A stretch of DNA of 64,000 nt from Clostridiaceae bacterium. GTDB lineage: Bacteria > Bacillota > Clostridia > Saccharofermentanales > DTU023. Below are positions 8,979 through 62,198 of this stretch, piece after piece. Both the position numbers and the translations under genes were made by a program. The notes below the pieces were generated by a model. The model was not told the DNA's origin and searched no databases. It saw only the letters and a list, made by a program, of their open reading frames with translations. Within the stretch, counting starts at the first letter, position 1; the number at the start of each line of letters is the position of its first letter. The stretch is from assembly GCA_012841015.1 (NCBI GenBank), contig DUVN01000014.1, positions 65,663-129,662 of the forward strand, read 5' to 3'.

Positions 8979-9085
8979 TTTAACTAACGTATTATAGCTG
9001 GCCTGCCACTGTCAGAAATCCTGCTCTTGGCAGGCCAACGCATTGTAGTGATCCTGCCGCAGCCAGAAACAATAATTCAAGTGGA

Positions 9086-9380
9086 TTGTGGCCAAAAATT
9101 CCGATTTGGGTACCAATTTCTTACCGAAAACGTTATTTTTGACCAGATGCGGGGGATTTTGGCCAAAATTTACACTTTGAGCAGAGAATTTCTGCCTAAA
9201 GCGTTATTTTTGACCATTTTTGAGCGCTCCTCACTCGGTTGTGGTCAAAATTTCCGCTTTGGGTATTGATTTCTTGCCTAAAATGTCATTTTTGACCATT
9301 TTCGCATGGTTTCTGGCAGATTGTGGTCAAAATTTCCGCTTTGGGTATTGATTTCTTGCCTAAAGCGTTATTTTTGACCA
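9086..9380 (+). repeat. Four tandem copies of a 60-nt hairpin-forming intergenic repeat
   Basis: Copies at 9086-9145, 9157-9216, 9239-9298 and 9321-9380. The consensus is TTGTGGTCAAAATTTCCGCTTTGGGTATTGATTTCTTGCCTAAAGCGTTATTTTTGACCA. Start-to-start distances are 71, 82 and 82 bp. Ends GGTCAAAAT/ATTTTTGACC and inner arms CTTTGGG/CCTAAAG are complementary. Confidence 0.9.
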
Positions 9381-9402
9381 ACTTAGCGCACTAAGTGTTT
9401 TT
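9381..9402 (+). terminator. Weak rho-independent terminator candidate after the gcv operon and repeat array
   Basis: ACTTAG-cgca-CTAAGT stem-loop followed by GTTTTT. Confidence 0.4.
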
Positions 9403-9499
9403 ATAGGAGTCTATAAACTAGGATAACCTTAAAGTGTAAGTATTTCGGTGTTACAGGCCAATACATTTTAATAGGCTAATAGAAGAATGCTATGTGGAG

Positions 9500-10306: not shown

Positions 10307-10978
10307 ATGGAATCACACATGATGAAGCTTGATGAAGCAAATCGACTTCTCGACGCTGGACAATTTTCCAAGGCGCGAGATCTTTTTTCTGCGCTTATTT
10401 TGGATGTTGAGGCGACACCTCCCATTAAAGGTCGTGCGCGTCTCGGTGAGGTTCGCTCTCTGATTGGACTCGGACAAATAGATGAGGCAATTCAATTAGT
10501 TGAGCGAATACTTGCAGGTCATGAGCGGCAAGTTCATCCGAATCTTCGTCCTTCTTTTCTACACGAGCGGGCGAGGTTGGCTGAGCTTCAGGGTGACAGA
10601 CAGGGGGCCATCGTCTATTACCGTGAGGAGTTGCTTTTTTTGTCATCGTCTATGCCTCATTATTTCTCTAGGCTCGCTGACAACTACATTAAGCAGGGGA
10701 CAGTTTTCTTCGAGCTCGGGGACAGGGCGGAATGCGAAATCTATTTGAGATTGGCTCGAGATTATGCCGACCGAGTGACATCGGAAAAGGCATATGCTGC
10801 TTTATTGGTGTTAAAGGGACGTTGTTTCGCGGAAGACGGTGAACTGTCGAGGGCGCTTGATGTTTTTTGTGAAGCGCGCGATCTGTACATAATTAAGGGG
10901 TTATTTTATGAATCTGCATCTGTCAACAAGAGGATTGCGAATGTTCGATGTAGAATGGAGAGAGGCAGAGTATTGTGA
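10307..10978 (+). CDS. TPR-like repeat protein, hypothetical
   Basis: Repeated approximately 34-aa helical A/L/Y-rich units (e.g. AGQFSKARDLFSALI, GQIDEAIQLVERIL, GDRQGAIVYYREEL). No closer assignment is possible. Confidence 0.55.
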   Translation: MESHMMKLDEANRLLDAGQFSKARDLFSALILDVEATPPIKGRARLGEVRSLIGLGQIDEAIQLVERILAGHERQVHPNLRPSFLHERARLAELQGDRQGAIVYYREELLFLSSSMPHYFSRLADNYIKQGTVFFELGDRAECEIYLRLARDYADRVTSEKAYAALLVLKGRCFAEDGELSRALDVFCEARDLYIIKGLFYESASVNKRIANVRCRMERGRVL

Positions 10979-12402
10979 AAGATGAAGGTAAAGAGAAACA
11001 ACTGACATCTCGAGCTATTAATAGCGAAGATATTTTGAAAGGATCGATTGTCCCGGTCCTTTTTTCTGTATCCGTCCCGATGATGATTACCAACTTAATC
11101 AATGCTGTATACAATCTGGCGGACGGACTATGGGTAGCGCAACTCTCGCTCGTTGATTTCTCTGCGACAAGTTTTGTTTGGCCTCCACATTATCTATTTG
11201 TATCTTTGGGTGTCGGCATTTCGATTGCGGGGACAGCGATCATCTCACAGCTAATCGGTGCTGGTGAGGATGAGCGAGCCGAATCGTATGCGACACATAT
11301 TTTCATTTTTTGTTTTGTTCTAGGTTTATTTTTCTCTATCGCTGGCTATGCTTTAGCGCCTTACATTATCAAAGTCATGGGTGCTACGGGAGAGCTTTAT
11401 GCTGCGGCCACGACGTATCTTTCTATCCTGATGGTTGGATTTGTATTTGAAATGGTCTACTTATCGTTTAATGCGATCTTAGGAGCTCAGGGTAAAACGC
11501 GCGTGACAACGAGGATTAGTGCAGTGTCGGCTATCCTTAATATTGTCCTCGACCCGATTTTTATTTTTACACGCATTCCTTTCGTCAATCTTCCCGGGTT
11601 AGGGATGGGGATCGCAGGTGCGGCGTGGGCGACTGTTATCTCGCAGGCTGTTCGTATGCTTTTGGGTGCGATGGCGATTCGTTCCGATGTCAATGAGGTG
11701 AGACTGCGTTTTAGAAATACAAAACTGACTTTTTCACAATTTACTAGACTCGCCCGCACGGGTTTCCCGACGGCGCTCGGGCAATCGAGTGCGGCGCTCG
11801 GATTTACTCTAATGCACTCGCTCATCGTCGATTATGGCAATGCGACGATTACTGCATACGCTGCAGTTAACCGTATCAATAGCTTTGTTATGATGCCGGC
11901 TTCCGGTATCGGCAGTGCACTGACGCCGCTTGTCGGGCAGAATATGGGAGCTGACAATCGCGAAAGGGCGAGAGATTTTGCTCGTACAGCCTTTCGCTAC
12001 ATCACGTATATATCGGTCGCAGGCGGCTTCTTAATGTGGCTTTTGCGCCATCCAGTGCTCTCGCTCTTTATCCGTGAAACGGGTGAACATGCTGATCTTG
12101 TCTGGGAGCAGTCATTGGAATATATGATTTATTCTGCATTCATGACACCCCCAATGGGATATTTTAGTGCGTTCGCGGGGATTTTTAGCGGTGCCGGGTA
12201 CCATCGATACGCCGCGTTCATTTCAATTTTTCGATTGTGGGGTATCCGACTTCCACTCATCTACTTCTTTAAGTCGGCAACTTCACTCGGTGCGACAGGC
12301 GTTTGGATCTCCATGCTCGCATCTAATATACTTATCATCCTTGTGGGGGCGATCATCTATCAGAAAGGCAAGTGGTACACGGATCCGATCGTCCGTCACT
12401 GA
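10975..12402 (+). CDS. MATE family efflux transporter
   Basis: 475 aa, about 12 TM helices, MATE-typical N-terminus (PVLFSVSVPMMITNLINAVYNLADGLWV). The GTG start overlaps the upstream stop (GTGA). Confidence 0.85.
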   Translation: MKDEGKEKQLTSRAINSEDILKGSIVPVLFSVSVPMMITNLINAVYNLADGLWVAQLSLVDFSATSFVWPPHYLFVSLGVGISIAGTAIISQLIGAGEDERAESYATHIFIFCFVLGLFFSIAGYALAPYIIKVMGATGELYAAATTYLSILMVGFVFEMVYLSFNAILGAQGKTRVTTRISAVSAILNIVLDPIFIFTRIPFVNLPGLGMGIAGAAWATVISQAVRMLLGAMAIRSDVNEVRLRFRNTKLTFSQFTRLARTGFPTALGQSSAALGFTLMHSLIVDYGNATITAYAAVNRINSFVMMPASGIGSALTPLVGQNMGADNRERARDFARTAFRYITYISVAGGFLMWLLRHPVLSLFIRETGEHADLVWEQSLEYMIYSAFMTPPMGYFSAFAGIFSGAGYHRYAAFISIFRLWGIRLPLIYFFKSATSLGATGVWISMLASNILIILVGAIIYQKGKWYTDPIVRH

Positions 12403-52178: not shown

Positions 52179-53771
52179 ATGTTTTTAATGGAGATGTCAA
52201 CTGTCATAAATGCAGTCGTTCTTGAATCACCAGTCCAGATAACAGGCACGGCCGTGATCGTATTGTCCGCTGTTGGAATTCTCGCTCTCGTGATGATTGG
52301 TTTGGTAGTCACAAGGGTACTTGCCAACCGCAAGTATGTCGAATTTGCGAGAGAGTTGGCGGAGGACGCCGTTGACGCTTTGGATAGTGCAGGTCATAAA
52401 GAAGGCGAAACAGCTGCGGAAGCTGTTCAGAGAGCGTTTTCGTCCTCACGTCAAGCTTTGCGTCGGTTCGGCGAAGCGATGCGTGAGACGAGCGAGGTGC
52501 TCTATGAGGGGCGTTGGATTGCCGATCCGAGAGATATCTTCTTGACACAGGGTTTTTTTACGACGACTGCTGTACAGATGCGGACAAGACTGGTCGCATG
52601 GCTCTGTTTCGCGATTAGTTCTGTTGCGGCTGCTGTGCTTATACCGGTGATGACCTATATGGACATTCCTGTCAATCCTCTCTACGTTGCCATTCCTCTA
52701 TTTGTCATTGGTCTTGTTTGCGGACTATTCCTCTTGATACTGAATGAGCGTACTACATTGAATAAAGTAGAGGATTGCGAGCGGCATGTCACCGCTGCTC
52801 TTGCGTCCTTTGTTCCTGTATTTCAAGACAAGGTAGGTGTTGCAATACTCGTGAATGAAGTGATTGGATACGGTGAGAAAATGCGCGAAGAAGTAAAATC
52901 TTTCAGCGTCATAGCAGAAGAGCTCGCTAAAGGCGAGTTCGCAGAGGGCATTAAGGTTGGCGTGCGCGATATCATGACGGAAGAAGTTGTCCCGCCGCTG
53001 CAAGAATCGAACTATGCGTTGACAGAGCTTGCCACATCACTTGCAAAGAAACAAGAGCACGGTATGGAGCAACTGGCAGACACGTTCTCCGAGTCGGTGG
53101 CACGTTATCTATCGATTCATATGTCGGCATTTCCCGAGAAGCTCCAGGCACTTCATCGCGTCATCGACCAGAGTGCGATCATGATGGAGGAATCGAATAG
53201 GGCGCTTGAGCAGGCGAAAAAGGAAAACATGGAAGTCAATAGTGATGTCCGTGAAGTGCTTCGTTTGATGGCGCTAGCCAAGGATGATATGGCAAATGAG
53301 ATGGCGTTTATCAGCGACAATCTTGCGATCATTGGGTCAAGCACCGACAGGATGACTGCACTTTATGCAGGTGAAGAGACAAACCTAGCCTCGCACATCA
53401 ATCAGATGACAGAACAGCTCCGCATCTATTCAGAAAAGCTCGATAAAGGAATCGTTGAGAGCGCTAAGGCGATCGATGCTTCCGTTGACATGGCTAGAAC
53501 TCAAAACAGGCAATCGCTGGCACTGCTCGACAGACTTGATGCGCAATTACACTCGCTCGACGAACTTGGCAGATTGATCTCACAAAATACAACGCACTTT
53601 ACACGCGAGTCGAGCGAATACGTCATCAAAACTCTTAATGAGTTTGACGCAAACTTAGCTGAAGTCGTTGAGCGACTGACATTTACAACAGCGGAGATTC
53701 GTGATGCTATTGATCCGCTTCCGCCGACCATCCGCAAAGCAGGACTCGGACGTGAAGTATATGACGTATAG
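52179..53771 (+). CDS. Hypothetical membrane-anchored coiled-coil protein
   Basis: Three predicted TM helices (about residues 23-48, 137-160 and 168-190) followed by about 330 aa of heptad-like helical sequence. No family was recognised. Confidence 0.6.
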   Translation: MFLMEMSTVINAVVLESPVQITGTAVIVLSAVGILALVMIGLVVTRVLANRKYVEFARELAEDAVDALDSAGHKEGETAAEAVQRAFSSSRQALRRFGEAMRETSEVLYEGRWIADPRDIFLTQGFFTTTAVQMRTRLVAWLCFAISSVAAAVLIPVMTYMDIPVNPLYVAIPLFVIGLVCGLFLLILNERTTLNKVEDCERHVTAALASFVPVFQDKVGVAILVNEVIGYGEKMREEVKSFSVIAEELAKGEFAEGIKVGVRDIMTEEVVPPLQESNYALTELATSLAKKQEHGMEQLADTFSESVARYLSIHMSAFPEKLQALHRVIDQSAIMMEESNRALEQAKKENMEVNSDVREVLRLMALAKDDMANEMAFISDNLAIIGSSTDRMTALYAGEETNLASHINQMTEQLRIYSEKLDKGIVESAKAIDASVDMARTQNRQSLALLDRLDAQLHSLDELGRLISQNTTHFTRESSEYVIKTLNEFDANLAEVVERLTFTTAEIRDAIDPLPPTIRKAGLGREVYDV

Positions 53772-53778
53772 AAGATAG

Positions 53779-55170
53779 ATGAGCATGGTGATGGACGAGA
53801 GGGGAAATCTTAATCGAGCTCAGAATATAGAGGGTGAAAGCACGAGAAAACGTGTAATCCGTCCTCTTAGGCTTCCCTCCATTCTGAAGGAGAAGTCGCC
53901 TCGTGACGATAAATTCACGCTTGGTTCTCCCGAGCTGATCGAGGCGGCTGAAGAACTGTTGAAGTCAGACAAGAGTACTGGACGTTCGACGGAGCGCGTT
54001 GAAGAACTGCCGAACGCAAGTGATGATCCAACGATATCTTCAGTTGTTCCTACTGGGCCCTTGGGCGTTCGCGAACAGTCTGCGAGAGCTGTTATGATAC
54101 GACCGTCTAAGCCTTTAAGCGTTGGTGATGAGCGTATTCGAGGAACAACACGTCCTAAATCCCTCGATGTCAGAGATGAGCCTGTGAGAGTTGCAGTACG
54201 ACCTGCTGAGCCTTTTTTGGATGAAAGTGACGATTATCTGGCAGATGCAGTACCTGCTGCCCCTCTAGCTAGCGATGCACTTGAGGTAGGTATAACACCT
54301 TCTGAACCGTTTGATGTTGACGAGGGGTCTGATACAGACAGAGCAGAACAAGCTGAACCCACATTACCTATGCTTGTAAGAAGGCCGCGAGAGTTTCGGA
54401 TAAGCAGAAAGCACGTTCCTGAAAAGGATAGTGCTCGTGAGGGAAGAAGTGTCAAAAAATCACTCATCCCTCTCCGCTACAAATCGCTAGAGGAAGCGAT
54501 GGGCGGTCTAAGAGATTTTCACCCTTTACCCTTTGAACTTATTCTTACGCAGACGCCGCACTATTCGACATGGATCATGACACAAATCAAGGGTGCCAAA
54601 ACAAAAAAAGAACTCAAAGAGCTCGCATTTAGTCTTTCCTATAAAGATTTGAGTCTTTTGTTTACAACGCTCTCTACGAAAAAGAAGCGAGATGAAATTG
54701 ATCAGATTGTGAATTTGATCCGTCTACGCGCGAGCCATTATCTCTATCTGTGCGGATGGTTGACGCTTCAGTACTGTTATCCACGTTCATCTGTTTCGCG
54801 TGCTCTTTCCGATCTCTGTACAATTCTAGAAGATTTAACTTACGTGAGAGACAACCGTCTTCACAGCCAACGAATCAGCCGAGAACCTTTGGCGCTTCCC
54901 GTTGTTTCGCTCGGGAGGGGACGTGTTATCTGGACGCGTGTACCGTTGATTTCGCGGATTTCTTCACCGAACAGTCGTCATTTTATTGCCGATATCGTGA
55001 CTGAGATGATTGAGTCCAAAGTTGATCCAGAGGCTTTCTTCACAGAGTACGCGATTATTCCAGGACAGCCGCTGGCCAACGCGATTGAAGTCCGCTACAA
55101 CGAAATGGTCACAGGTGTCGCTGCTAATCCGTTGCTCTCGAGCGATTTCTTCGATCGTTTCAGGCGCTAG
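53779..55170 (+). CDS. Hypothetical protein with a disordered N-terminal half carrying R-P-x-x-P/L short repeats
   Basis: The ORF starts 8 nt after the preceding gene. Repeats such as VIRPLRLP, MIRPSKPL, TTRPKSLD and AVRPAEPF occur in the N-terminal half. The roughly 230-aa C-terminal region was not recognised. Confidence 0.55.
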   Translation: MSMVMDERGNLNRAQNIEGESTRKRVIRPLRLPSILKEKSPRDDKFTLGSPELIEAAEELLKSDKSTGRSTERVEELPNASDDPTISSVVPTGPLGVREQSARAVMIRPSKPLSVGDERIRGTTRPKSLDVRDEPVRVAVRPAEPFLDESDDYLADAVPAAPLASDALEVGITPSEPFDVDEGSDTDRAEQAEPTLPMLVRRPREFRISRKHVPEKDSAREGRSVKKSLIPLRYKSLEEAMGGLRDFHPLPFELILTQTPHYSTWIMTQIKGAKTKKELKELAFSLSYKDLSLLFTTLSTKKKRDEIDQIVNLIRLRASHYLYLCGWLTLQYCYPRSSVSRALSDLCTILEDLTYVRDNRLHSQRISREPLALPVVSLGRGRVIWTRVPLISRISSPNSRHFIADIVTEMIESKVDPEAFFTEYAIIPGQPLANAIEVRYNEMVTGVAANPLLSSDFFDRFRR

Positions 55171-55256
55171 CGTGGACATTCAGCATCAATTCTGTGGTAA
55201 ACTATTTGGCGTGCCAGCTACCGGATGGTCGTCTGGTTAGCTAACATATAACAAGT

Positions 55257-55347
55257 GGAGGCGTACCGAAGTGGCCGTAACGGGGCGCTCTCGAAAAGCG
55301 TTTGTCGGGTGACCGACACGTGAGTTCGAATCTCACCGCCTCCGCCA
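55257..55347 (+). tRNA. tRNA-Ser (anticodon CGA)
   Basis: Acceptor GGAGGCG/CGCCTCC, anticodon loop CTCGAAA, long variable arm (TGTCGGGTGACCGACA), T-arm GTGAG-TTCGAAT-CTCAC, encoded CCA. Confidence 0.92.
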
Positions 55348-55355
55348 CAATTTGT

Positions 55356-55395
55356 CCTAAAACGCCGTCATACTAGGCGTTTTGGGACTTTTTTT
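55356..55395 (+). terminator. Rho-independent terminator after tRNA-Ser
   Basis: CCTAAAACGCC / GGCGTTTTGGG stem followed by ACTTTTTTT. Confidence 0.8.
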
Positions 55396-55513
55396 ACCCT
55401 GAAGGTATTAAGCCCTGAAGGTAAACTGCACCCTATAGAACGGATACGAGCAGTTTTCAAAAACCCTGATGAGCAAAATGAAAATATTGATCACAGTACT
55501 TACCGTAATTGTG

Positions 55514-55563
55514 TAGACGTCAAACCTGCCGGCGGTTCCTACTACCGACATGTTTGACGTCTA
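55514..55563. repeat. Perfect 12-bp inverted repeat TAGACGTCAAAC / GTTTGACGTCTA separated by 26 bp
   Basis: Read directly: arms at 55514-55525 and 55552-55563. No adjacent T-tract on either strand. Confidence 0.8.
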
Positions 55564-55689
55564 TTTCTAAATCTGCCAAAAACAGCGTACAATCGACCCA
55601 ACCACCGTCCTCGTCTGAAATAATGACATCATTTAAGTTTAATATCAGATCATGCCGAATTGGTTGTACCCGCTTCGTATGCAGTCATA

Positions 55690-56910
55690 TCACCATCCAA
55701 TTTCGTTACTGTATCTGCCTTTCATGCTCGCCTCGGCAAGAACATGCCCTTTTATGGCCTCGTCAAATTGTTCTTTTGTAAATCCATTTTCAAGCTGAAC
55801 TAAGGAATCAAGAGCATAAACTGTAATGACATACGTATGGGGTTTATCGGGCGGTGTAGGGCCGCCGTAACCGATTTTTCCGAAATCATTTTCCCCCTGC
55901 ACCATGTCCGCCGCCATCGTAATGCTTGCGTCTTCGGGCAGCTCGTTGTCTTTCAAGTTTACGACTGTCCAATGAAACCATTCATAACCGCATAACGGCA
56001 CAGAGTCCGGATCGGTCATTTTGATCGCATAACAAACAGTATTGTCAGGTGCATAGTTTATTGAGATCGGGAATGATCGCGTCGGCACATCGTCTTCCAT
56101 CTGCCCTCCAAACATGCCGTACTGCGGCCATATATCACCATCTACGATATCCCTGCTACTCACCTCCATCTCCATTGTTCCCGTGGCGTGTTTCAAGGCA
56201 CAGTTAACGGCTTCCTGCATCGGAAATGATCCGTCAAAGTACTTTGTGCCTTTTATTACTGTAATTGATGCGGGCGGATCACTACCTATGAAGCTTTCAA
56301 TCCATGTTTCGGCGCCGGATGTCATATCGATGTAGGATACATCAATTCGCCATCGGATCGCGGGCAGTATGCCTGCACCGTAGGATGTATAAGTGAAAAC
56401 TGTTTCGGGAATGGCGGTCATTTGAATAAACGTATCGCACGCTACTAGGCTTGCCGGAATATTATCTTTCGGCAATTGCGCCATACAGTCGAGGAATAGA
56501 CCATTTTTACCTTTCAGCGAAGCTTCAGTGTTTTCATGCTGCTTATAGAATATTAGTGCGCGCTTGCCATCAGCGTGGCTTACGTTCAAGTCATATTTGT
56601 CTATTGGGAGAATAAATCCGTTGCGCATGACACCAGGTTTTTTAAAATCGACTATTTTATCTTTGTTTTTCTCCATATATTCTGCAAAAAAAGCGCCAAA
56701 GTCGTCCGGATTAGTTAGCAGCCTCTTTGCTGCTTCGGCAATGTTCCCAGTTGTTACTTTGCCGTCCATAAAATAAGGCCCGTCAGTTGCTAATGGCTGC
56801 GGTTTGTCTATTGTCAATGCGCTTTTTATCGGTGCGTTGCCGGGCTGACTACTACAGGCTGTTAACAGTAGGACAAATACGATGACAAGAGCTAAATTTG
56901 ATCGTTTCAT
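55690..56910 (-). CDS. Lipoprotein with C-terminal PEBP (YbhB/YbcL, Raf-kinase-inhibitor-like) domain
   Basis: Lipobox LLTAC after a signal peptide. The C-terminus (WFHWTVVNL...YGGPTPPDKPHTYVITVYALD) matches the PEBP family. ATG 56910 is preceded by GGAGGA. Confidence 0.8.
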   Translation of the reverse strand: MKRSNLALVIVFVLLLTACSSQPGNAPIKSALTIDKPQPLATDGPYFMDGKVTTGNIAEAAKRLLTNPDDFGAFFAEYMEKNKDKIVDFKKPGVMRNGFILPIDKYDLNVSHADGKRALIFYKQHENTEASLKGKNGLFLDCMAQLPKDNIPASLVACDTFIQMTAIPETVFTYTSYGAGILPAIRWRIDVSYIDMTSGAETWIESFIGSDPPASITVIKGTKYFDGSFPMQEAVNCALKHATGTMEMEVSSRDIVDGDIWPQYGMFGGQMEDDVPTRSFPISINYAPDNTVCYAIKMTDPDSVPLCGYEWFHWTVVNLKDNELPEDASITMAADMVQGENDFGKIGYGGPTPPDKPHTYVITVYALDSLVQLENGFTKEQFDEAIKGHVLAEASMKGRYSNEIGW

Positions 56911-57183
56911 TCGTTCAATCCTCCACAATGGAAATCAGTTTTGATTAAAGTCGCCAATAAGATAGAAACGTCAGCTTATGTTATCCCACCTATCGCCGAC
57001 CGTCATTTGCAGCTTCCGGATTTATTTTCACTTTCAGTATACGCCTCAATGCCCCCTCGGTTGTCTGCTTTGAGCATACAACTGACCTTTATCTTAGCGC
57101 TACTCTACTAGAAAGACAGCGTTGGAGTGGTGATGAAGGCGTAGCAATGCCCGCCAAGTTAACGAATAATGGAGGTTTTCAGA

Positions 57184-57501
57184 ATGGACATTTTTTTAAC
57201 AATTATTGGTGCAGTGGTCATCGTTGCATTCGTATTTTTTCTTATTGTTGTTATACCGATAATCTTCGGAAAACTCTTTCTTCGATGGTCGGGTAAGAGG
57301 ATGCGTTACGTATTTTCAGAATCGCTTTCGACAATTCTAGCTGCAGTGATCGGTTCATTGGTGTTAACCGGCTTGATTTTGTTGATCGGTTTAGTATTTA
57401 AGAAGCAATGGGCTTTCTCAGGGGGACTCCTTCTTGTGTACACATTTTGGATTGCGATTAAGGTGGTTCGGGAAAATATATGGCGTTCAAGAGGACTGTG
57501 A
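57184..57501 (+). CDS. Small hypothetical membrane protein (3 TM)
   Basis: About 105 aa and strongly hydrophobic. ATG 57184 lies 8 nt after GGAGG (57171-57175). Confidence 0.5.
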   Translation: MDIFLTIIGAVVIVAFVFFLIVVIPIIFGKLFLRWSGKRMRYVFSESLSTILAAVIGSLVLTGLILLIGLVFKKQWAFSGGLLLVYTFWIAIKVVRENIWRSRGL

Positions 57502-57577
57502 TAAACAGGAAGTAAGGAAAAGAAGAAAAAGAAGAAAACAATTCTTTGAGTGTCTTTTCAGGTTCGTGGGGCTGAGA

Positions 57578-57849
57578 AGCCGGTCTCTATGACCAAGGGT
57601 ATCATGTTCTAACCGTCCCAATCAACGCCCTTATATGCAGCTGGCCTCTACGACTATTGGTATCACGTTTCGGTATCTCTACAGACGTTTGTTGTCCACA
57701 GCTTGCCTCTACGACCATGAGTATTACCGAGCTATCCATCTATCGCGAACATAAATCGCTAATCGGTCTCTACGACCATGTGTATTACAATCCGGTCTAA
57801 GTTCTCGGATGACTCTAGGCAAGTCGGTCTCTATGACCAAGGGTATTAC
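57578..57849 (+). repeat. Degenerate repeat-spacer array: five 24-28-nt repeats at an exact 61-bp period
   Basis: Repeat cores start at 57582, 57643, 57704, 57765 and 57826. Consensus GGTCTCTAYGACCAWGNGTATYAC, preceded by AGYY. The intervening roughly 33-37 nt differ from each other. Confidence 0.85.
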
Positions 57850-57863
57850 TGTTGTCTTACATC

Positions 57864-58005
57864 GGTTGGTCAAAATTTGCACCTTGAGTACGACCCCTTT
57901 GCCTAAAGCGTCATTTTTGACCATTTTCAAGCGACTTCAAGACAATTCTGGTCAAAATTTCCACTTTGAGCACCAAATGCTTGCCGAAAGCGTATTTTTT
58001 GTCCA
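57864..58005 (+). repeat. Two further copies of the 60-nt hairpin repeat seen at 9086-9380
   Basis: Copies at 57864-57923 and 57946-58005. They have the same orientation, the same 82-bp start-to-start distance and a 22-nt linker beginning TTTT. Confidence 0.85.
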
Positions 58006-58152
58006 GATTAGAAAATATGTAGTGACTCCGGAATTGCAAGGAGGCGTTTTAATCTACAACCTTAAATAGAAAAACAGTGCGGCATGACCACAAACAATGG
58101 AGGACACTGCATGTTTGCTAAGCAAATTACTGTCTGTTCACGCACAATTTCA

Positions 58153-58348
58153 GGTCGATCATTGACCACTCTAGGTTGAGTTTGCCCCGTTGCCCACGCC
58201 TATTCTCGCATGCTTTCGGGTTGATTCCTACGCCCAAGTGCGCGATCAATGCGGTGTGGGGCTAACACGACGGAAAGTAGGTCGATCCCCACGCTCAAGT
58301 GCGCGCTACACAAAAAAGCACCTATTCTCGCACGCTTTCGGGTCGATC
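58153..58348 (+). repeat. Mosaic repeat array, again in 61-bp register
   Basis: GGTYGATY cores start at 58153, 58219, 58280 and 58341 (steps 66, 61, 61). A 28-nt segment CCTATTCTCGCAYGCTTTCGGGTYGATY occurs at 58199 and 58321. A 26-nt segment GGTYGATYCCYACGCYCAAGTGCGCG occurs at 58219 and 58280. Confidence 0.8.
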
Positions 58349-58443
58349 AGAGCCACTAACGGACCTGGTGCGCAAAAACTGTGTGCCAGATTTGAGCGCT
58401 GGGGAAAAAGCGGGCTATCTCGTTTTGAGACAGCCACGACACT

Positions 58444-58857
58444 TTATTCCGAAGCCAACTTATGTCCTAATTCGCGGCAGGCAGCAAGTCCGTCTATGTC
58501 AGGCATTAGGTGGCAAATTAAACCATCGGCCACCAACCGGATACCGAGTCCTTCACAATCTTCTTGCCAGTTTCTCATCCATTCGCCATCACCCCAATCA
58601 TAAGAGCCAAACAGCGCAATTTTCTTGCCGGACAACTTTCCCTTCACGCTGTCAAACATGGGCGCAAACTCGCCGTCCTCTAATTCTTCAGACCCCATAG
58701 ATGGGCACCCGAAGGCAATCGCTTCATAGCCAGACATCAATTCAGCATTAAAATCGCTTGCATGGTACAAATCAGCGTTACAAGTTTTGGCAATTTCTTC
58801 AGCCATCGTTTCCGTATTACCAGATCCGCTCCAATAAACTACAGCTATTTTAGACAT
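58444..58857 (-). CDS. Short-chain flavodoxin
   Basis: MSKIAVVYWSGSGNTETMAEEIA FMN-binding N-terminus, 137 aa, RBS AGGAGG. Confidence 0.9.
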   Translation of the reverse strand: MSKIAVVYWSGSGNTETMAEEIAKTCNADLYHASDFNAELMSGYEAIAFGCPSMGSEELEDGEFAPMFDSVKGKLSGKKIALFGSYDWGDGEWMRNWQEDCEGLGIRLVADGLICHLMPDIDGLAACRELGHKLASE

Positions 58858-58890
58858 GAATGAAACCTCCTTAAAATAATAATTTGTATG

Positions 58891-59454
58891 TCAAGCAGCG
58901 TGAACAATCTGCAAAACACTCTGTCCTTCTCGCAGGCATTCTAGGCAGTGCTCTCGGCATCGTTGGAACAATTCGAAACGCTCTTTTGCTATGTCTGGTT
59001 GTGAATATACTTTCCAAAGACCTGAAAAAGCAAAATTTTTGCCTTTGTTGGTGATAAAACCTAGGACGTCGTCAAGAGGGTAACCTAAAAATAGTCCAAT
59101 CTCATGAGGAAAATCATCATACTCAGTCAATTTTTTCAGTAAATGTTCAACATTAGCCTCGTAACCTTTGTTAACAGGATAGCCTAATTCGCATAAGAAG
59201 CACTGAAGCTCCGGTTGGGATAGCATAGCCTCTATCAGCTTGGGTCGATAAACAAAAATGAGCATAGAACCACTATTTCTATCTATCATATGGATTTGTA
59301 CGCCTTTTTTGTGAAGTGCTTGATCAAGCGTCCTAAGTTTCTCCCGAAACATTACGACGCAAGAAGGACGGTGGGAAAAGAGGCTTCCGGCCTTATAACC
59401 TTTTAATGTCGCTGATGTATGATGCACAAAAATTTCTTCAAAGGTGTCTTTCAT
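58891..59454 (-). CDS. DUF3793 family protein
   Basis: The N-terminus HHTSATLKGYKAGSLF and overall size resemble DUF3793, which from memory is commonly paired with flavodoxin in Clostridia. Confidence 0.6.
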   Translation of the reverse strand: MKDTFEEIFVHHTSATLKGYKAGSLFSHRPSCVVMFREKLRTLDQALHKKGVQIHMIDRNSGSMLIFVYRPKLIEAMLSQPELQCFLCELGYPVNKGYEANVEHLLKKLTEYDDFPHEIGLFLGYPLDDVLGFITNKGKNFAFSGLWKVYSQPDIAKERFELFQRCREHCLECLREGQSVLQIVHAA

Positions 59455-59485
59455 AATATCCCTAATAATGTAGTGGAATCACCGA

Positions 59486-59526
59486 GGTTAGCTACCCCTA
59501 ACCAGTAAAGTTAGTCTAACCTAACC
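59486..59526. promoter_or_regulatory. Two adjacent rGTTAG-N6-CTAACy palindromes upstream of the DUF3793-flavodoxin operon
   Basis: GGTTAG-CTACCC-CTAACC (59486-59503) and AGTTAG-TCTAAC-CTAACC (59509-59526). Confidence 0.6.
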
Positions 59527-59663
59527 TTGCTGAATTGTCAAGAGGTTTCAACCATCGAAATTTTTCTCTGAATGAAGGAGTTGTATTATTCATTGCTTTT
59601 TTATACAGATACGATTTGGTTGGTTTGGCGTTAATGGAAAGACTTCTTTTGCTAAATATTAAT

Positions 59664-59681
59664 GGTTAGTTTATTCTAACT
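59664..59681. promoter_or_regulatory. rGTTAG-N6-CTAACy palindrome upstream of the hydrolase gene
   Basis: GGTTAG-TTTATT-CTAACT, ending 52 bp upstream of ATG 59733. Confidence 0.55.
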
Positions 59682-59732
59682 ATAGGCAGCTTTTCACGTG
59701 ATTTTGAATGATTTGGCAAGAGAGGATATTCG

Positions 59733-60650
59733 ATGATACTCAGTAATAAATTAATTATGGGAGCTCTTTGGCTGTTGCATTTTTTGAATCCACCGACTCT
59801 GGATGTGGACGCCATTTATGCGCACGCTAAGAAGCATAACGAGCGTCAGGTGTTTAAGATCCCTAGGGGTAGGGGGATTGATTACGATGACCTGAGCATT
59901 CACACTGAGATCGATTCTTATCATTGTCTACGTATGAAAAGGAAGGGGCACAAGCCTGAAAGGGCTGTTCTTTATATTTGTGGCGGCGGAGGTGTATACG
60001 ACTATTGCCAAGCACAACTTGTCCTAGCGAAAAGGCTTTTGAGACGTGTGGACGCCGATATTTATTACCCGTTCTATCCTCCTGCGACAAAGAATCCCAT
60101 TAGAGAAACTTATAGAATGATTTTTGAAACGTACAGAGCTATGCTCAAACATTACAGCAACGAACAAATAGGAGTTCTGGGCTTGTCCTTCGGAGCGACG
60201 GCGGCCATGACAATGATTTCCTGGAATAATTTCTATGAGGAAAATCTACCCATGCCTGCTGTCACGATAGGATTATCCCCCGGTCATGTGCCTGCCTGTC
60301 AGGATGAAAAGGATATGCTCGAAACTTACAGAGGCATAGATCCCTTCATTCCTGTTGAATGGATCGATGCGTTTGGGCATATCCAAAAAGGGGGAGTGGA
60401 TTTGGATCATTGGATGATTCACACCTGCCATGGAGATTTTCGTAATGCCGGGGAAATTTACCTTTATTATGGCGAGAAAGAGAGTCTGGTTTATGCAGCT
60501 CCCATCTACGAGAAGTCACTTAAGAGGTCAGGGGCAAAATACCAAATCCATATAGAGCTGGGTATGCCTCACTGCTATGGGATCGGTCGGATAAACAAAG
60601 CCACTAGAACAACCTATGATGAAATTGTGGGCTTATTGAATGAACTGTAG
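59733..60650 (+). CDS. Alpha/beta hydrolase (esterase/lipase-like, GGGG oxyanion motif)
   Basis: LYICGGGGVYDY and nucleophile elbow GLSFGA; 305 aa; RBS AGAGGA. Confidence 0.7.
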   Translation: MILSNKLIMGALWLLHFLNPPTLDVDAIYAHAKKHNERQVFKIPRGRGIDYDDLSIHTEIDSYHCLRMKRKGHKPERAVLYICGGGGVYDYCQAQLVLAKRLLRRVDADIYYPFYPPATKNPIRETYRMIFETYRAMLKHYSNEQIGVLGLSFGATAAMTMISWNNFYEENLPMPAVTIGLSPGHVPACQDEKDMLETYRGIDPFIPVEWIDAFGHIQKGGVDLDHWMIHTCHGDFRNAGEIYLYYGEKESLVYAAPIYEKSLKRSGAKYQIHIELGMPHCYGIGRINKATRTTYDEIVGLLNEL

Positions 60651-60720
60651 AACCGTCAGATAACAAGTGTAAAACATGTTTTGCTTAGCTTGAGATCGCG
60701 GCAAGTTCATGCAAGCACTT

Positions 60721-61191
60721 TCATTTCTTGCTGGACGACAGAAGCTTTTGCCATTTTCTTTGCCGATGAGTGTAAAAGGCCTTAGCCCACAGAGCGACAA
60801 ACGGTGTTTTCCATCCGGCACCGATCTCCACCTCGTCCGTATAGCGCGTCGTTGCTCGATTGATCGCTTCTAGGTAGATTCTGTGATTCCAGATAGGGAC
60901 GTGTTTATTGTGCTCCTCAGTACTGATGCCTGCTTCTTCACCAGACGTCAGAACACGAATCGTATGGATGCCGAAAGGAATAAAGCCGAACAGATAGAAA
61001 CGGAAAGAAAACGTCGAGCCTTCTTCCCATATAATGTCTTGGTCGTCACCGACCGGGATGAATTTGGCATACGGGGCGGCGACATATTGAAGTGTTTCCA
61101 GTTTTAGCAGTTTCTGAAACACTTCACTTTTTCCGGCTTGAAAATGCGTCGAAATGGCGATTGTCTTCGTTTTTAAGAAACATTTATTCAT
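60721..61191 (-). CDS. Hypothetical protein, possibly SRPBCC-fold
   Basis: 156 aa with no motif recognised with certainty. It lies 5 nt downstream of the methyltransferase gene on the same strand. Confidence 0.45.
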   Translation of the reverse strand: MNKCFLKTKTIAISTHFQAGKSEVFQKLLKLETLQYVAAPYAKFIPVGDDQDIIWEEGSTFSFRFYLFGFIPFGIHTIRVLTSGEEAGISTEEHNKHVPIWNHRIYLEAINRATTRYTDEVEIGAGWKTPFVALWAKAFYTHRQRKWQKLLSSSKK

Positions 61192-61196
61192 TTTGC

Positions 61197-61901
61197 TTAT
61201 ACGTCCGTCTCAGGTAGAACTGCCTTCCTCATTAAAAAGTGAATCCATTGTCTGCCATCAATGTACAGGCAAGGTGTTCTTGCAATATGAATGATTTGTA
61301 AAACCGGGACGGATGAGAGAACCGTTTGCATACGATCCTCAGTCATATTGGCCATGAATGAGCCCAATTGCTCTCGCCATTCTTCCTCATCGCCCTCCAT
61401 AAAACTGGCGTAAACGTACCCTCTTGGCTTAAGGGCTGTAGCAATACGTGAAAAGGCATCCGGCATAGCTCGTCTTGGAATATGCAGGAGAGAACAGCAA
61501 GCCCACACCGCATCGTACAAAGCGACGTCCGACAGCTGATCGAAGCGGAGGCTCTGTACAGGCATGCCGAGTTTTTCAGAGGCGATGCGGCAGCAGGCGA
61601 TAGACGCATCGGAAGCGCTCACTTGGAACCCCAATCGCTGGAAAGTAAGAGCGTAATGACCTGTCCCACAACCTAGATCAAGAATGTGATCGCCGTCTTT
61701 AAGATAGGGTAAAAGAAACTTTTCCCAAGAAGGATACCGATCGCTAGGTACCGCTTCCTCTTCATCTATAAACCGATCATATTGGTCGATCGTTTTCTGG
61801 CAATACAGCGCCTCCTGGTGAATCATCACTTCATCTCCGATCATCATATTTTGCGCGAACTTTTTACCAGTTGAGTACGACACATACACTATCTGTTGCA
61901 C
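61197..61901 (-). CDS. Class I SAM-dependent methyltransferase
   Basis: Motif I ILDLGCGTGHYA followed by the acidic motif II region. Start uncertain, with several in-frame Met codons. Confidence 0.8.
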   Translation of the reverse strand: MQQIVYVSYSTGKKFAQNMMIGDEVMIHQEALYCQKTIDQYDRFIDEEEAVPSDRYPSWEKFLLPYLKDGDHILDLGCGTGHYALTFQRLGFQVSASDASIACCRIASEKLGMPVQSLRFDQLSDVALYDAVWACCSLLHIPRRAMPDAFSRIATALKPRGYVYASFMEGDEEEWREQLGSFMANMTEDRMQTVLSSVPVLQIIHIARTPCLYIDGRQWIHFLMRKAVLPETDV

Positions 61902-61949
61902 TCTATTAGAGACATCGCGTTTGATAGAGTCAGCAATCGTTTGCCTGGC

Positions 61950-61967
61950 GGTTAGCTTAAGCTAACA
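61950..61967. promoter_or_regulatory. rGTTAG-N6-CTAACy palindrome upstream of the methyltransferase operon
   Basis: GGTTAG-CTTAAG-CTAACA; the central 16 bp form a perfect palindrome. Confidence 0.55.
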
Positions 61968-62198
61968 TCATGTTATCAGACAGAATATCGGCAAGCAAAC
62001 GGAGCTGAATGCCAAAGTGACTTGGACAGTGAGAAGCGGGGGTCGTCCAGTTTAATCTGGCAAACCGTCTGTTCTGCTTAGTTTGACACAACGTTCATCA
62101 ATCTTCGTGGCCCGCAGAATGCCAAAGTAAACTGCACCGTCGAGTAGATATCGAAGAAGCGACTCAAACGTAGCAATCGATTAACGGTTATCGTCGTA

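What the first reader, a model, noticed from the sequence alone, without database searches (positions are those of the whole stretch)
57578..57849. Exact 61-bp-period repeat-spacer array (5 units) with degenerate 24-28-nt repeats and no cas genes in view
Repeat cores begin at 57582, 57643, 57704, 57765 and 57826, an invariant 61-bp step. The repeats are: R1 GGTCTCTATGACCAAGGGTATCAT; R2 GGCCTCTACGACTATTGGTATCAC; R3 TGCCTCTACGACCATGAGTATTAC; R4 GGTCTCTACGACCATGTGTATTAC; R5 GGTCTCTATGACCAAGGGTATTAC. Each is preceded by AGYY. The core contains a small palindrome, GGTC-N5-GACC. The roughly 33-37-nt intervening segments are mutually dissimilar, which gives a CRISPR-like layout (e.g. 28+33). Against a functional CRISPR: the repeats differ from one another at 2-6 positions, no cas gene is within the window, and three spacers carry weak half-phase echoes of the core. 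Those echoes are GGTATCTCTACAGAC at 57672, CCATCTATCGCGAAC at 57736 and GGTCT...ATGAC at 57794. Alternatives are a decaying orphan CRISPR array, an array of phased protein-binding sites (iteron or centromere-like, left by an integrated element), or a repeat-encoded small-RNA locus. The fixed register with a variable filler is not explained by any annotated feature here.
Basis: seen in the sequence. Interest (0 to 1): 0.7.

Follow-up and report, generated by a model that had tools for sequence, protein, structure and literature searches.

The report
Cas-less, drifted CRISPR-like repeat array
Five drifted copies of a 28-base repeat, separated by four unrelated 33-base fillers, lie between two ordinary genes of an uncultured Clostridia bacterium; this looks most like the fossil of a CRISPR array that lost its cas genes, and nothing shows that it still works.

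Summary
Five copies of a 28-nt core start at 57578, 57639, 57700, 57761 and 57822, an exact 61-nt step. Cores are 70-89% alike. The four 33-nt fillers are no more alike than random DNA.

The array sits in a 942-bp gap between two convergent genes: a 105/110-aa membrane protein and a flavodoxin. The gap is a synteny breakpoint and also holds an unrelated 82-bp palindromic repeat family.

The 28+33 layout equals the 61-bp unit of type I-E CRISPR arrays. Differences between the cores are scattered as random drift would scatter them. Together with the unrelated fillers, this fits a repeat-spacer array that was born as such and then decayed.

I found no evidence of function:
- No cas or defence gene in the 64-kb window or about 5 kb past its end.
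- No Rfam CRISPR repeat family matches.
- No related repeat in 185,579 species genomes, or in the metagenome or viral collections.
- No spacer match in phages, plasmids or viral contigs.
- No fold signal.
- 20 metagenome contigs are 100% identical, but they come from one clone.

Most likely this is a decayed orphan CRISPR (about 0.45). The main rival is a lineage-specific non-CRISPR "false-CRISPR" (about 0.35). Interest is low to moderate.

The parts
57578..57849 (+). Whole repeat-filler array: 5 repeats of 28 nt and 4 fillers of 33 nt, exact 61-nt period. The strand of function is unknown; '+' is only the strand on which it is described.
57578..57605 (+). Repeat R1: AGCCGGTCTCTATGACCAAGGGTATCAT. 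3 differences from R5; hairpin GGTC/GACC intact.
57606..57638 (+). Filler (spacer) S1, 33 nt: GTTCTAACCGTCCCAATCAACGCCCTTATATGC
   Evidence: no match
57639..57666 (+). Repeat R2: AGCTGGCCTCTACGACTATTGGTATCAC. Hairpin lost.
57667..57699 (+). Filler S2, 33 nt: GTTTCGGTATCTCTACAGACGTTTGTTGTCCAC. Holds the best 'echo', which is not significant after correction.
   Evidence: no match
57700..57727 (+). Repeat R3: AGCTTGCCTCTACGACCATGAGTATTAC. Hairpin lost.
57728..57760 (+). Filler S3, 33 nt: CGAGCTATCCATCTATCGCGAACATAAATCGCT
   Evidence: no match
57761..57788 (+). Repeat R4: AATCGGTCTCTACGACCATGTGTATTAC. Hairpin intact.
57789..57821 (+). Filler S4, 33 nt: AATCCGGTCTAAGTTCTCGGATGACTCTAGGCA
   Evidence: no match
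57822..57849 (+). Repeat R5: AGTCGGTCTCTATGACCAAGGGTATTAC. Hairpin intact.
57502..57577 (+). Context, left flank: 76 nt between the stop of the 105/110-aa membrane-protein ORF and R1. It is A-rich (37% G+C, 41% A) and includes AAGAAAAAG x2.8. No terminator-like site separates the ORF from the array on the + strand, so this flank is a possible short leader or simply a 3' UTR.
57862..58005 (+). Context, not part of the array: two copies of an 82-bp-period imperfect palindrome (TGGTCAAAA...TTTTTGACCA) abutting R5. The same family has 4 copies at 9084-9380.

Best explanation
The locus is the decayed remnant of a small CRISPR array with 28-nt repeats and 33-nt spacers, the 61-bp unit typical of type I-E systems, and its cas genes are no longer nearby.

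Inferred history: the units were added one at a time by a Cas1-Cas2 type integrase. That enzyme copies the neighbouring repeat and inserts a foreign fragment of fixed length, so the fillers were unrelated from birth and the period was exact. After the adaptation and interference genes were lost or separated, the repeats drifted by about 0.13 substitutions per site per copy. Two of the five lost their small hairpin.

Today the array is most likely inert DNA in a convergent intergenic gap. At most it is carried passively on read-through transcripts of the upstream membrane-protein gene.

Shown: the anatomy, the two classes of columns, the absence of cas genes in the window, and the absence of matches.
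Inferred: the CRISPR origin and the present lack of function.
For: (1) Exact 61-nt step with a 28-nt conserved block and a 33-nt filler. In E. coli type I-E, each acquisition adds 61 bp (29-bp repeat plus 32-bp spacer) and duplicates the leader-proximal repeat (PMC4081107).
(2) There are two sharply separate classes of columns. Cores average 77.5% identity (Jukes-Cantor distance 0.27). Fillers in register average 26.8% identity, against 25.5% expected at random. With gaps allowed the fillers are no more alike than random 33-mers (P=0.72). Tandem Repeats Finder does not see the array even at minimum score 30, although it reports the neighbouring 82-bp whole-unit repeat at 80% matches. If a 61-nt unit had been duplicated and the fillers had then drifted to saturation, an unchanged period across four units would be very unlikely (inference).
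(3) The 12 variable columns of the core are scattered as uniform drift predicts. There are 16 invariant columns against 14-17.5 expected, and the longest invariant run is 5 (P=0.53). There is no sign of a constrained sub-motif such as a binding site would show.
(4) All six columns with a 3:2 split group neighbouring repeats, as copying from the adjacent repeat would produce. This is only suggestive: 10 of 120 orderings do as well.
(5) Three repeats contain a short palindrome.
(6) The gap is a synteny breakpoint. In relatives at about 70% identity the flavodoxin gene is followed directly by ABC-transporter genes.
Against: - No cas or other defence gene lies in the 64-kb window or the roughly 5 kb beyond its end.
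- All five repeats differ from one another at 3-8 of 28 positions. That is far more than in working arrays.
- No Rfam CRISPR-DR family matches, even at E<=10 on a 291-nt slice.
- The invariant core positions, required twice at CRISPR-like spacing, occur in none of the 185,579 species genomes. The single hit is a chance match inside a duplicated spacer of an unrelated array. Metagenome hits are unrelated satellites and viral contigs give nothing.
- No spacer match in phages or plasmids by BLAST at E<=10, apart from one chance-level 24-nt match to a Stenotrophomonas phage at E=1, nor as 20-mers in viral contigs.
- R1 resembles R5 most closely. Strictly polar addition from one end does not predict this.
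- The repeat lacks the G+C-rich 6-7-bp stem of typical type I-E repeats (my own knowledge, not tested against a repeat database).
- The same gap holds other, non-CRISPR repeats.
Confidence: 0.45

Rival explanations
1. It is a lineage-specific non-CRISPR repeat, a 'false-CRISPR' of the unknown class. Short direct repeats would have arisen or been maintained in this repeat-prone convergent gap by some other process, for example local gene conversion or selection on a weak protein-binding or DNA-structural motif with constrained spacing. It would have no link to adaptive immunity.
For: - No cas genes, no known repeat family, no spacer matches and no variation between assemblies. These are the criteria by which Zhang and Ye classed 27% of predicted CRISPRs as false; 1,285 of their 3,224 false-CRISPRs remained of unknown kind (PMC5294841).
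- The same gap and a second convergent gap (about 8979-9499) carry an 82-bp-period palindromic family that also keeps a strict period, and a third patch at 58117-58350 has 61/66/122-nt spacings.
- The ring-like similarity of the repeats (R1 closest to R5) is not what polar CRISPR growth gives.
Against: - The fillers are at random-level identity while the cores differ by only 0.27 substitutions per site. This needs either fillers that were unrelated from the start or strong selection on both a 28-nt block and its spacing.
- The scatter of variable positions shows no constrained sub-motif.
- TRF does not detect the array, so it is not the 'tandem repeat' class.
- The STAR signature is absent.
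- The core is not dispersed. There is no other copy in the window, in the roughly 5 kb beyond it, or in relatives' loci.
- It is not a long palindrome like REP elements.
Confidence: 0.35
2. It is a still-functional cas-less CRISPR-like RNA locus. It would be served in trans by cas genes elsewhere in the genome, or processed by housekeeping RNases as in Listeria RliB-CRISPR, and would act in interference or regulation.
For: - Precedent: RliB-CRISPR sits at a fixed locus, is never next to cas genes, is processed by PNPase and interferes when cas genes are supplied in trans (PMC3886909).
- On the + strand no terminator-like site separates the upstream ORF from the array, so read-through transcription is plausible.
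- The locus is identical in 20 assemblies.
Against: - The repeats are too divergent for one Cas6 or Cascade-type recognition. Two of the five have lost the hairpin without compensation.
- No fold signal on either strand (z +1.24 and +1.12).
- No promoter-like site of its own.
- No spacer targets found.
- No homologous locus in any relative examined, whereas RliB is conserved across a genus.
Confidence: 0.1
3. It is an array of phased protein-binding sites (iterons or a partition centromere) left by an integrated plasmid or phage.
For: Five direct repeats at a fixed spacing, some with a small dyad, in a region of lower G+C (0.43-0.44 against 0.48) at a synteny breakpoint.
Against: - No replication-initiator, partition, integrase or other mobile-element gene appears among the neighbours.
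- No similarity to any plasmid or phage record.
- 61 bp is 5.8 turns of B-DNA, so the sites would not share one face of the helix (inference).
- The dyad is not the conserved part of the repeat.
- Known iteron and centromere arrays have much shorter or whole-unit-conserved periods (my own knowledge).
Confidence: 0.05

Closest known systems
Type I-E CRISPR arrays (for example E. coli K-12: 29-bp repeat plus 32-bp spacer, a 61-bp unit)
   Same: Identical unit length and a strictly constant period. A repeat of 28-29 nt with a short internal palindrome. Fillers of 32-33 nt that are unrelated to one another. Neighbouring repeats tend to share variants, as expected when the adjacent repeat is copied at each acquisition (PMC4081107).
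   Different: The repeats are only 70-89% identical to each other. There is no G+C-rich stem and no typical 3' handle. No Rfam CRISPR-DR match, no cas genes in 64 kb, no long AT-rich leader and no spacer targets.
RliB-CRISPR of Listeria monocytogenes (cas-less orphan array; PMC3886909)
   Same: A small array at a fixed chromosomal site between housekeeping genes, with no adjacent cas genes.
   Different: RliB is conserved across the genus, varies in spacers between strains, has spacers that match Listeria phages, and is known to be expressed and processed. None of this is shown here, and the repeats here are much more degenerate.
[quoted passage not shown]
   Same: A repeat-spacer look, no companion cas genes, no spacer diversity between assemblies, and a repeat unlike any known CRISPR repeat.
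   Different: It is not detected by Tandem Repeats Finder, it lacks the STAR signature, and it is not low-complexity. The fillers within the array really are diverse, so only the 'unknown' class could hold it.
REP/BIME-type clustered intergenic palindromes
   Same: Located in a gap between convergent genes, clustered, and next to a true palindromic repeat family (the 82-bp elements).
   Different: All five units are in direct orientation. The dyad is only 4 bp and is present in 3 of 5 copies. There are no dispersed copies in the 64 kb examined.

Membership tests
CRISPR array (generic) | Direct repeats of 23-55 nt that are nearly identical within the array | tested here: not met
   The length (28 nt) fits, but pairwise identity is only 70-89% and no two copies are identical.
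CRISPR array (generic) | Spacers of uniform length that are unrelated to one another | tested here: met
   Four fillers of exactly 33 nt. In-register identity is 26.8% against 25.5% at random; gapped local scores equal the null (P=0.72). TRF is blind to the array.
CRISPR array (generic) | cas genes adjacent or elsewhere in the genome | tested here: not met
   None in the 64-kb window or about 5 kb beyond it (Pfam, NCBIfam, PADLOC and precomputed Pfam). The rest of the genome could not be examined.
CRISPR array (generic) | Spacers match phages, plasmids or other mobile DNA | tested here: not met
   BLAST at E<=10 against 50,697 phage and 72,556 plasmid records gave only one chance-level hit at E=1. 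Central 20-mers of all four fillers have 0 hits in 2.9 million viral contigs. This is a weak test for an uncultured lineage and for drifted spacers.
CRISPR array (generic) | Gain or loss of units between strains | tested here: inconclusive
   20 contigs from at least 12 sequencing runs are 100% identical across the locus. They show zero differences anywhere, so they are one clone. The next relatives (59-77% protein identity) lack the locus.
CRISPR array (generic) | Repeat belongs to a described CRISPR repeat family | tested here: not met
   No CRISPR-DR family of Rfam 15 matches, even at E<=10 on a 291-nt slice. No array with the invariant core was found in the genome, metagenome or viral collections. 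Dedicated repeat databases were not available.
CRISPR array (generic) | AT-rich leader with a promoter next to the first repeat | tested here: inconclusive
   Only 76 nt separate the upstream stop codon from R1. This stretch is 37% G+C and A-rich, with no promoter-like site on the + strand.
Type I-E CRISPR | 61-bp unit (28/29-nt repeat plus 32/33-nt spacer) with a strictly constant period | tested here: met
   Four successive steps of exactly 61 nt, as 28+33. Reference value from PMC4081107.
Type I-E CRISPR | Repeat with a G+C-rich stem of about 6-7 bp followed by an 8-nt handle | tested here: not met
   The only stem is the 4-bp GGTC/GACC, present in 3 of 5 copies and followed by 11 nt. The family feature itself is from my own knowledge.
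False-CRISPR, tandem-repeat class | Detected as a tandem repeat by Tandem Repeats Finder | tested here: not met
   Not reported at minimum score 30.
False-CRISPR, STAR-like class | Signature T[GAT]TGTTG[GT]GGCCC[CA] | tested here: not met
   No match in or near the array with up to 2 mismatches.
False-CRISPR, unknown class | Repeat-spacer look, no cas genes, no spacer diversity between genomes, repeat unlike real CRISPR repeats | tested here: inconclusive
   All the criteria are formally met. However, the diversity test rests on one clone, and cas absence is shown only for the window and about 5 kb beyond it.
REP/BIME-like elements | Imperfect palindrome of about 20-40 nt, in many dispersed copies, often in alternating orientation | tested here: not met
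   The dyad is 4 bp, all copies are direct, and no other copy exists in the window or fetched loci.
Iterons or partition centromere | Next to a cognate rep or par gene on a plasmid- or phage-derived segment | tested here: not met
   The neighbours are a PEBP-family lipoprotein-like protein, a small membrane protein, a flavodoxin and a DUF3793 protein. No plasmid or phage similarity.
Type III toxin-antitoxin RNA repeats (ToxI-like) | Near-perfect head-to-tail repeats of about 34-40 nt next to a toxN-type gene | tested here: not met
   The units are 61 nt with unrelated fillers. No such gene is nearby and there is no PADLOC hit.
RliB-like cas-less CRISPR | Expressed and processed into small RNAs; conserved at one locus across a genus | not testable with these tools
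   No expression data. No orthologous locus in the relatives examined.

The most novel reading that the evidence does not exclude
The array is maintained by selection and is not a fossil. One version: it is a set of five spaced recognition sites for an unknown protein or RNase in which both the 28-nt core and the 61-nt spacing matter. Another version: it is the product of an unrecognised spacer-inserting activity that tolerates divergent repeats and works without any known cas gene nearby.
Probability: 0.05. Interest if true: 0.7.

Novelty: new member of a known kind. Interest (0 to 1): 0.25.

Why it matters
If it is a fossil, it is a small but clean example of how a CRISPR array decays after losing its cas genes. 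The repeats have drifted by about a quarter of a substitution per site between copies, while the ruler-set period has survived untouched. It would also record that this uncultured lineage related to Christensenellales once carried a system with type I-E-like geometry.

It is also a useful test case for CRISPR callers. It passes the "diverse spacers" filter and is invisible to Tandem Repeats Finder, yet it fails every functional criterion.

It does not open a new biological question unless the whole genome shows that the core is used elsewhere or that the locus is expressed and processed.

Tried and rejected
(1) I thought by eye that the third repeat patch (58117-58350) was a diverged continuation of the array, because it also has 61-nt spacings and TCCCCACGCTCAAGTG resembles TCTCTACGACCATGTG. 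Gapped local alignment scores equal the null from random window segments (best 9.0 against a mean of 8.6), so I rejected this.

(2) I thought by eye, and from memory, that the core or that patch resembled Firmicute type I-E repeats. This is not testable here and gains no support from Rfam CRISPR-DR models. It remains an untested lead.

(3) The half-phase echoes, which could suggest an ancestral unit of about 30.5 nt, are not significant.

(4) RNA structure: the whole array folds no better than shuffles on either strand, and the small hairpin is not maintained.

(5) Comparative route: homologues of DUF3793, the PEBP-like protein and the 105-aa membrane protein led to relatives at 59-77% identity, all with different neighbourhoods and no array. 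Exact-protein look-ups returned only 100%-identical copies of the locus.

(6) Collection scans for the paired core pattern gave one chance hit inside a duplicated spacer of a Pseudomonadota CRISPR (L011) and three unrelated satellite arrays (L012-L014).

(7) A full-text search of the literature for 12-mers of the core returned only unrelated primer sequences.

(8) One exact look-up, of the MatE protein at 10975-12402, found nothing on record.

Full report
WHAT IS THERE. The window is chromosomal DNA of an uncultured Clostridia bacterium. Proteins of this locus are recorded as 'MAG TPA: Clostridiaceae bacterium', and the nearest DUF3793 homologues, at 72% identity and below, come from Christensenellales MAGs. 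The window carries housekeeping genes throughout: glycine cleavage, rimP-nusA-infB, the dcw cell-division cluster, recG and ddl.

The finding lies in a 942-bp gap (57502-58443) between two convergent genes. One is a 105/110-aa membrane-protein ORF on the + strand that ends at 57501. The other is a flavodoxin gene on the - strand that ends at 58444 and is followed at once by a terminator-like hairpin at 58435-58413.

CHECK OF THE OBSERVATION. Five copies of a conserved block occur at an exact 61-nt step. Laying the region out in rows of 61 shows a block of 28 conserved columns (57578-57605 in the first unit). The columns on both sides drop straight to random-level agreement, so the layout is 28-nt repeat plus 33-nt filler.

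A degenerate consensus finds four of the five copies at up to 3 mismatches, with 0.00 matches expected. A weight matrix scores the five at 39-42 bits. The best score elsewhere in 128 kb of both strands is 11.8, and shuffles reach at most 15.4. The feature is real and not due to chance.

Details to correct:
- The AGYY prefix holds in four of five copies.
- The GGTC-N5-GACC dyad is intact in R1, R4 and R5 only.
- Copies differ at 3-8 of 28 positions.
- The 'half-phase echoes' are not significant (sum P=0.11).

ANATOMY AND STATISTICS. Cores average 77.5% pairwise identity (Jukes-Cantor distance 0.27). Fillers in register average 26.8%, against 25.5% expected from base composition. With gaps allowed they resemble one another no more than random 33-mers from the window do (P=0.72).

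Tandem Repeats Finder does not report the array at minimum score 30. It does report the neighbouring 82-bp repeat at 80% matches. This is therefore a true repeat-filler array, not a whole-unit tandem repeat.

The twelve variable core columns are scattered as uniform drift predicts: 16 invariant columns against 14-17.5 expected, and a longest invariant run of 5 (P=0.53). All six columns with a 3:2 split group neighbours in the order R1-R2-R3-R4-R5-(R1). This is suggestive only, since 10 of 120 orders do as well. R1 is closest to R5.

The fillers have the genome's G+C content and no match longer than 12 nt elsewhere in the window. Neither strand folds better than shuffles (z +1.24 and +1.12). 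R2 and R3 lost the small hairpin without compensation.

No promoter-like site precedes the array on either strand. On the + strand no terminator-like site lies between the upstream ORF and R1. On the - strand two terminator-like hairpins (58435-58413 and 58092-58078) lie between the flavodoxin gene and the array. If the array is transcribed at all, it is most likely as + strand read-through (inference).

SEARCHES FOR RELATIVES AND FUNCTION.
- Rfam gives nothing but chance-level hits, and no CRISPR-DR family, even on a 291-nt slice at E<=10.
- I required the invariant core positions twice at CRISPR-like spacing. In 185,579 species genomes this found one place, a chance match inside a duplicated spacer of an unrelated Pseudomonadota CRISPR. 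In the metagenome collection it found three unrelated satellite arrays. In viral contigs it found nothing.
- BLAST of the array against phage and plasmid records at E<=10 gave only one chance-level match at E=1. Central 20-mers of all four fillers have no hit in viral contigs.
- No cas or defence protein is encoded in the window or in the roughly 5 kb past its end.
- Twenty contigs from at least a dozen sequencing runs carry the locus, and all are 100% identical over up to 1.9 kb. There is no unit turnover, but these are one clone, so the test is weak.
- In relatives at about 70% identity, the flavodoxin gene is followed within 60-140 bp by ABC-transporter genes. Homologues of the PEBP-like and 105-aa proteins sit in other neighbourhoods, with no copy of the repeat. 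The gap is a synteny breakpoint and the array has no detectable homologue.

INTERPRETATION. The decisive feature is that the columns fall into two classes with an unchanged period. Suppose a 61-nt unit had been duplicated in tandem. The fillers would then have had to drift to saturation (more than 2 substitutions per site) while the cores changed by only 0.27, and no insertion or deletion could have changed any of the four steps. That requires strong selection on a 28-nt block and on its spacing. Yet the block shows no internally constrained sub-motif, and its only dyad has been lost in two copies.

The alternative is simpler. The fillers were unrelated from the start and the period was set by a molecular ruler. 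CRISPR adaptation does exactly this. In E. coli type I-E, each acquisition duplicates the leader-proximal repeat and adds exactly 61 bp, made of a 29-bp repeat and a 32-bp spacer (PMC4081107).

I therefore rank a decayed orphan CRISPR array first, at 0.45. What keeps the figure below one half:
- Every positive criterion came back empty: cas genes, repeat family, protospacers, turnover.
- The repeats are far more divergent than in any working array.
- The closeness of R1 to R5 is not what polar growth predicts.
- The same gap is full of other non-CRISPR repeats.

By the criteria of Zhang and Ye (PMC5294841) the element would be filed as a false-CRISPR of the 'unknown' class; I give that rival 0.35. 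A working cas-less locus like Listeria RliB-CRISPR (PMC3886909) gets 0.10, and an iteron or centromere relic gets 0.05.

COMPARISON WITH WHAT IS KNOWN, AND NOVELTY. In geometry the array resembles a type I-E array. It does not meet the sequence or context criteria for membership of any CRISPR family. It is best described as an orphan, degenerate CRISPR-like array. That is a known kind of object, and this is a new and unremarkable member of it. Interest is low to moderate (0.25).

The most novel reading the evidence leaves open is that the array is maintained by selection. Either it is a spaced recognition array, or it was made by an unrecognised spacer-inserting activity. I give this about 0.05.

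Noticed in passing
window 9084-9380 (4 copies) and 57862-58005 (2 copies): A dispersed family of imperfect palindromes (TGGYCAAAA...GCCTAAAGCGTTATTTTTGACCA) arranged in tandem with an 82-bp period (one step of 71 bp). Both clusters lie in gaps between convergent genes. No covariation supports an RNA structure. Two metagenome contigs break inside the second cluster (about 57973 and 57998), as expected for a genome-wide repeat. No match in plasmid or phage records.
   Followed up: partly
window 58117-58350: A third repeat patch in the same gap. A 27-nt motif (CCTATTCTCGCAYGCTTTCGGGTYGAT) occurs at 58133, 58199 and 58321. A 26-nt motif (GGTYGATYCCYACGCYCAAGTGCGCG) occurs at 58219 and 58280, again 61 nt apart. 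A long imperfect hairpin spans 58240-58306. Its similarity to the 61-bp array's core is at chance level. I have no explanation for the recurrence of the 61-nt spacing.
   Followed up: partly
window about 59485-59527 (- strand, upstream of the DUF3793-flavodoxin operon): Two adjacent palindromes (GGTTAGGTTAGACTAAC and GGTTAGGGGTAGCTAACC) resemble DtxR/IdeR-type iron-repressor operators (from memory). In relatives a Fe_dep_repress gene lies directly upstream of the same operon, and similar boxes are visible there (L018 5930-5970). This suggests iron-regulated flavodoxin expression.
   Followed up: no
window 52179-53771 and 53779-55170 (+ strand): Two adjacent large ORFs (530 and 463 aa) between ddl and the PEBP-like gene have no match in Pfam, NCBIfam or PADLOC.
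   Followed up: partly
window 57184-57501; loci L039-L043: The 105-aa membrane protein just upstream of the array has homologues at 70-77% identity in other uncultured Bacillota. They always sit in different neighbourhoods, often beside large unannotated proteins with a zinc-ribbon hit. It behaves like an accessory gene.
   Followed up: partly
L013 and L014 (metagenome contigs Ga0209122_1077358 and Ga0209150_1063218): Long satellite arrays with a unit of roughly 40 bp contain CTCT(C/T)TATGACCCARTGTATCC. This resembles the core of the array here (CTCTATGACCAAGGGTATCA) over about 20 nt. It is probably coincidence. Their source organism is unknown.
   Followed up: no
window 54000-62000: G+C falls from about 0.48 to 0.43-0.44. 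The steadily positive GC skew and the all-plus gene orientation of the first 55 kb end here. This coincides with the synteny breakpoint that holds the repeats.
   Followed up: no
window 57514-57538: A polypurine micro-repeat, AAGAAAAAG x2.8, lies directly after the stop codon of the membrane-protein ORF and 40 nt before the first repeat.
   Followed up: no
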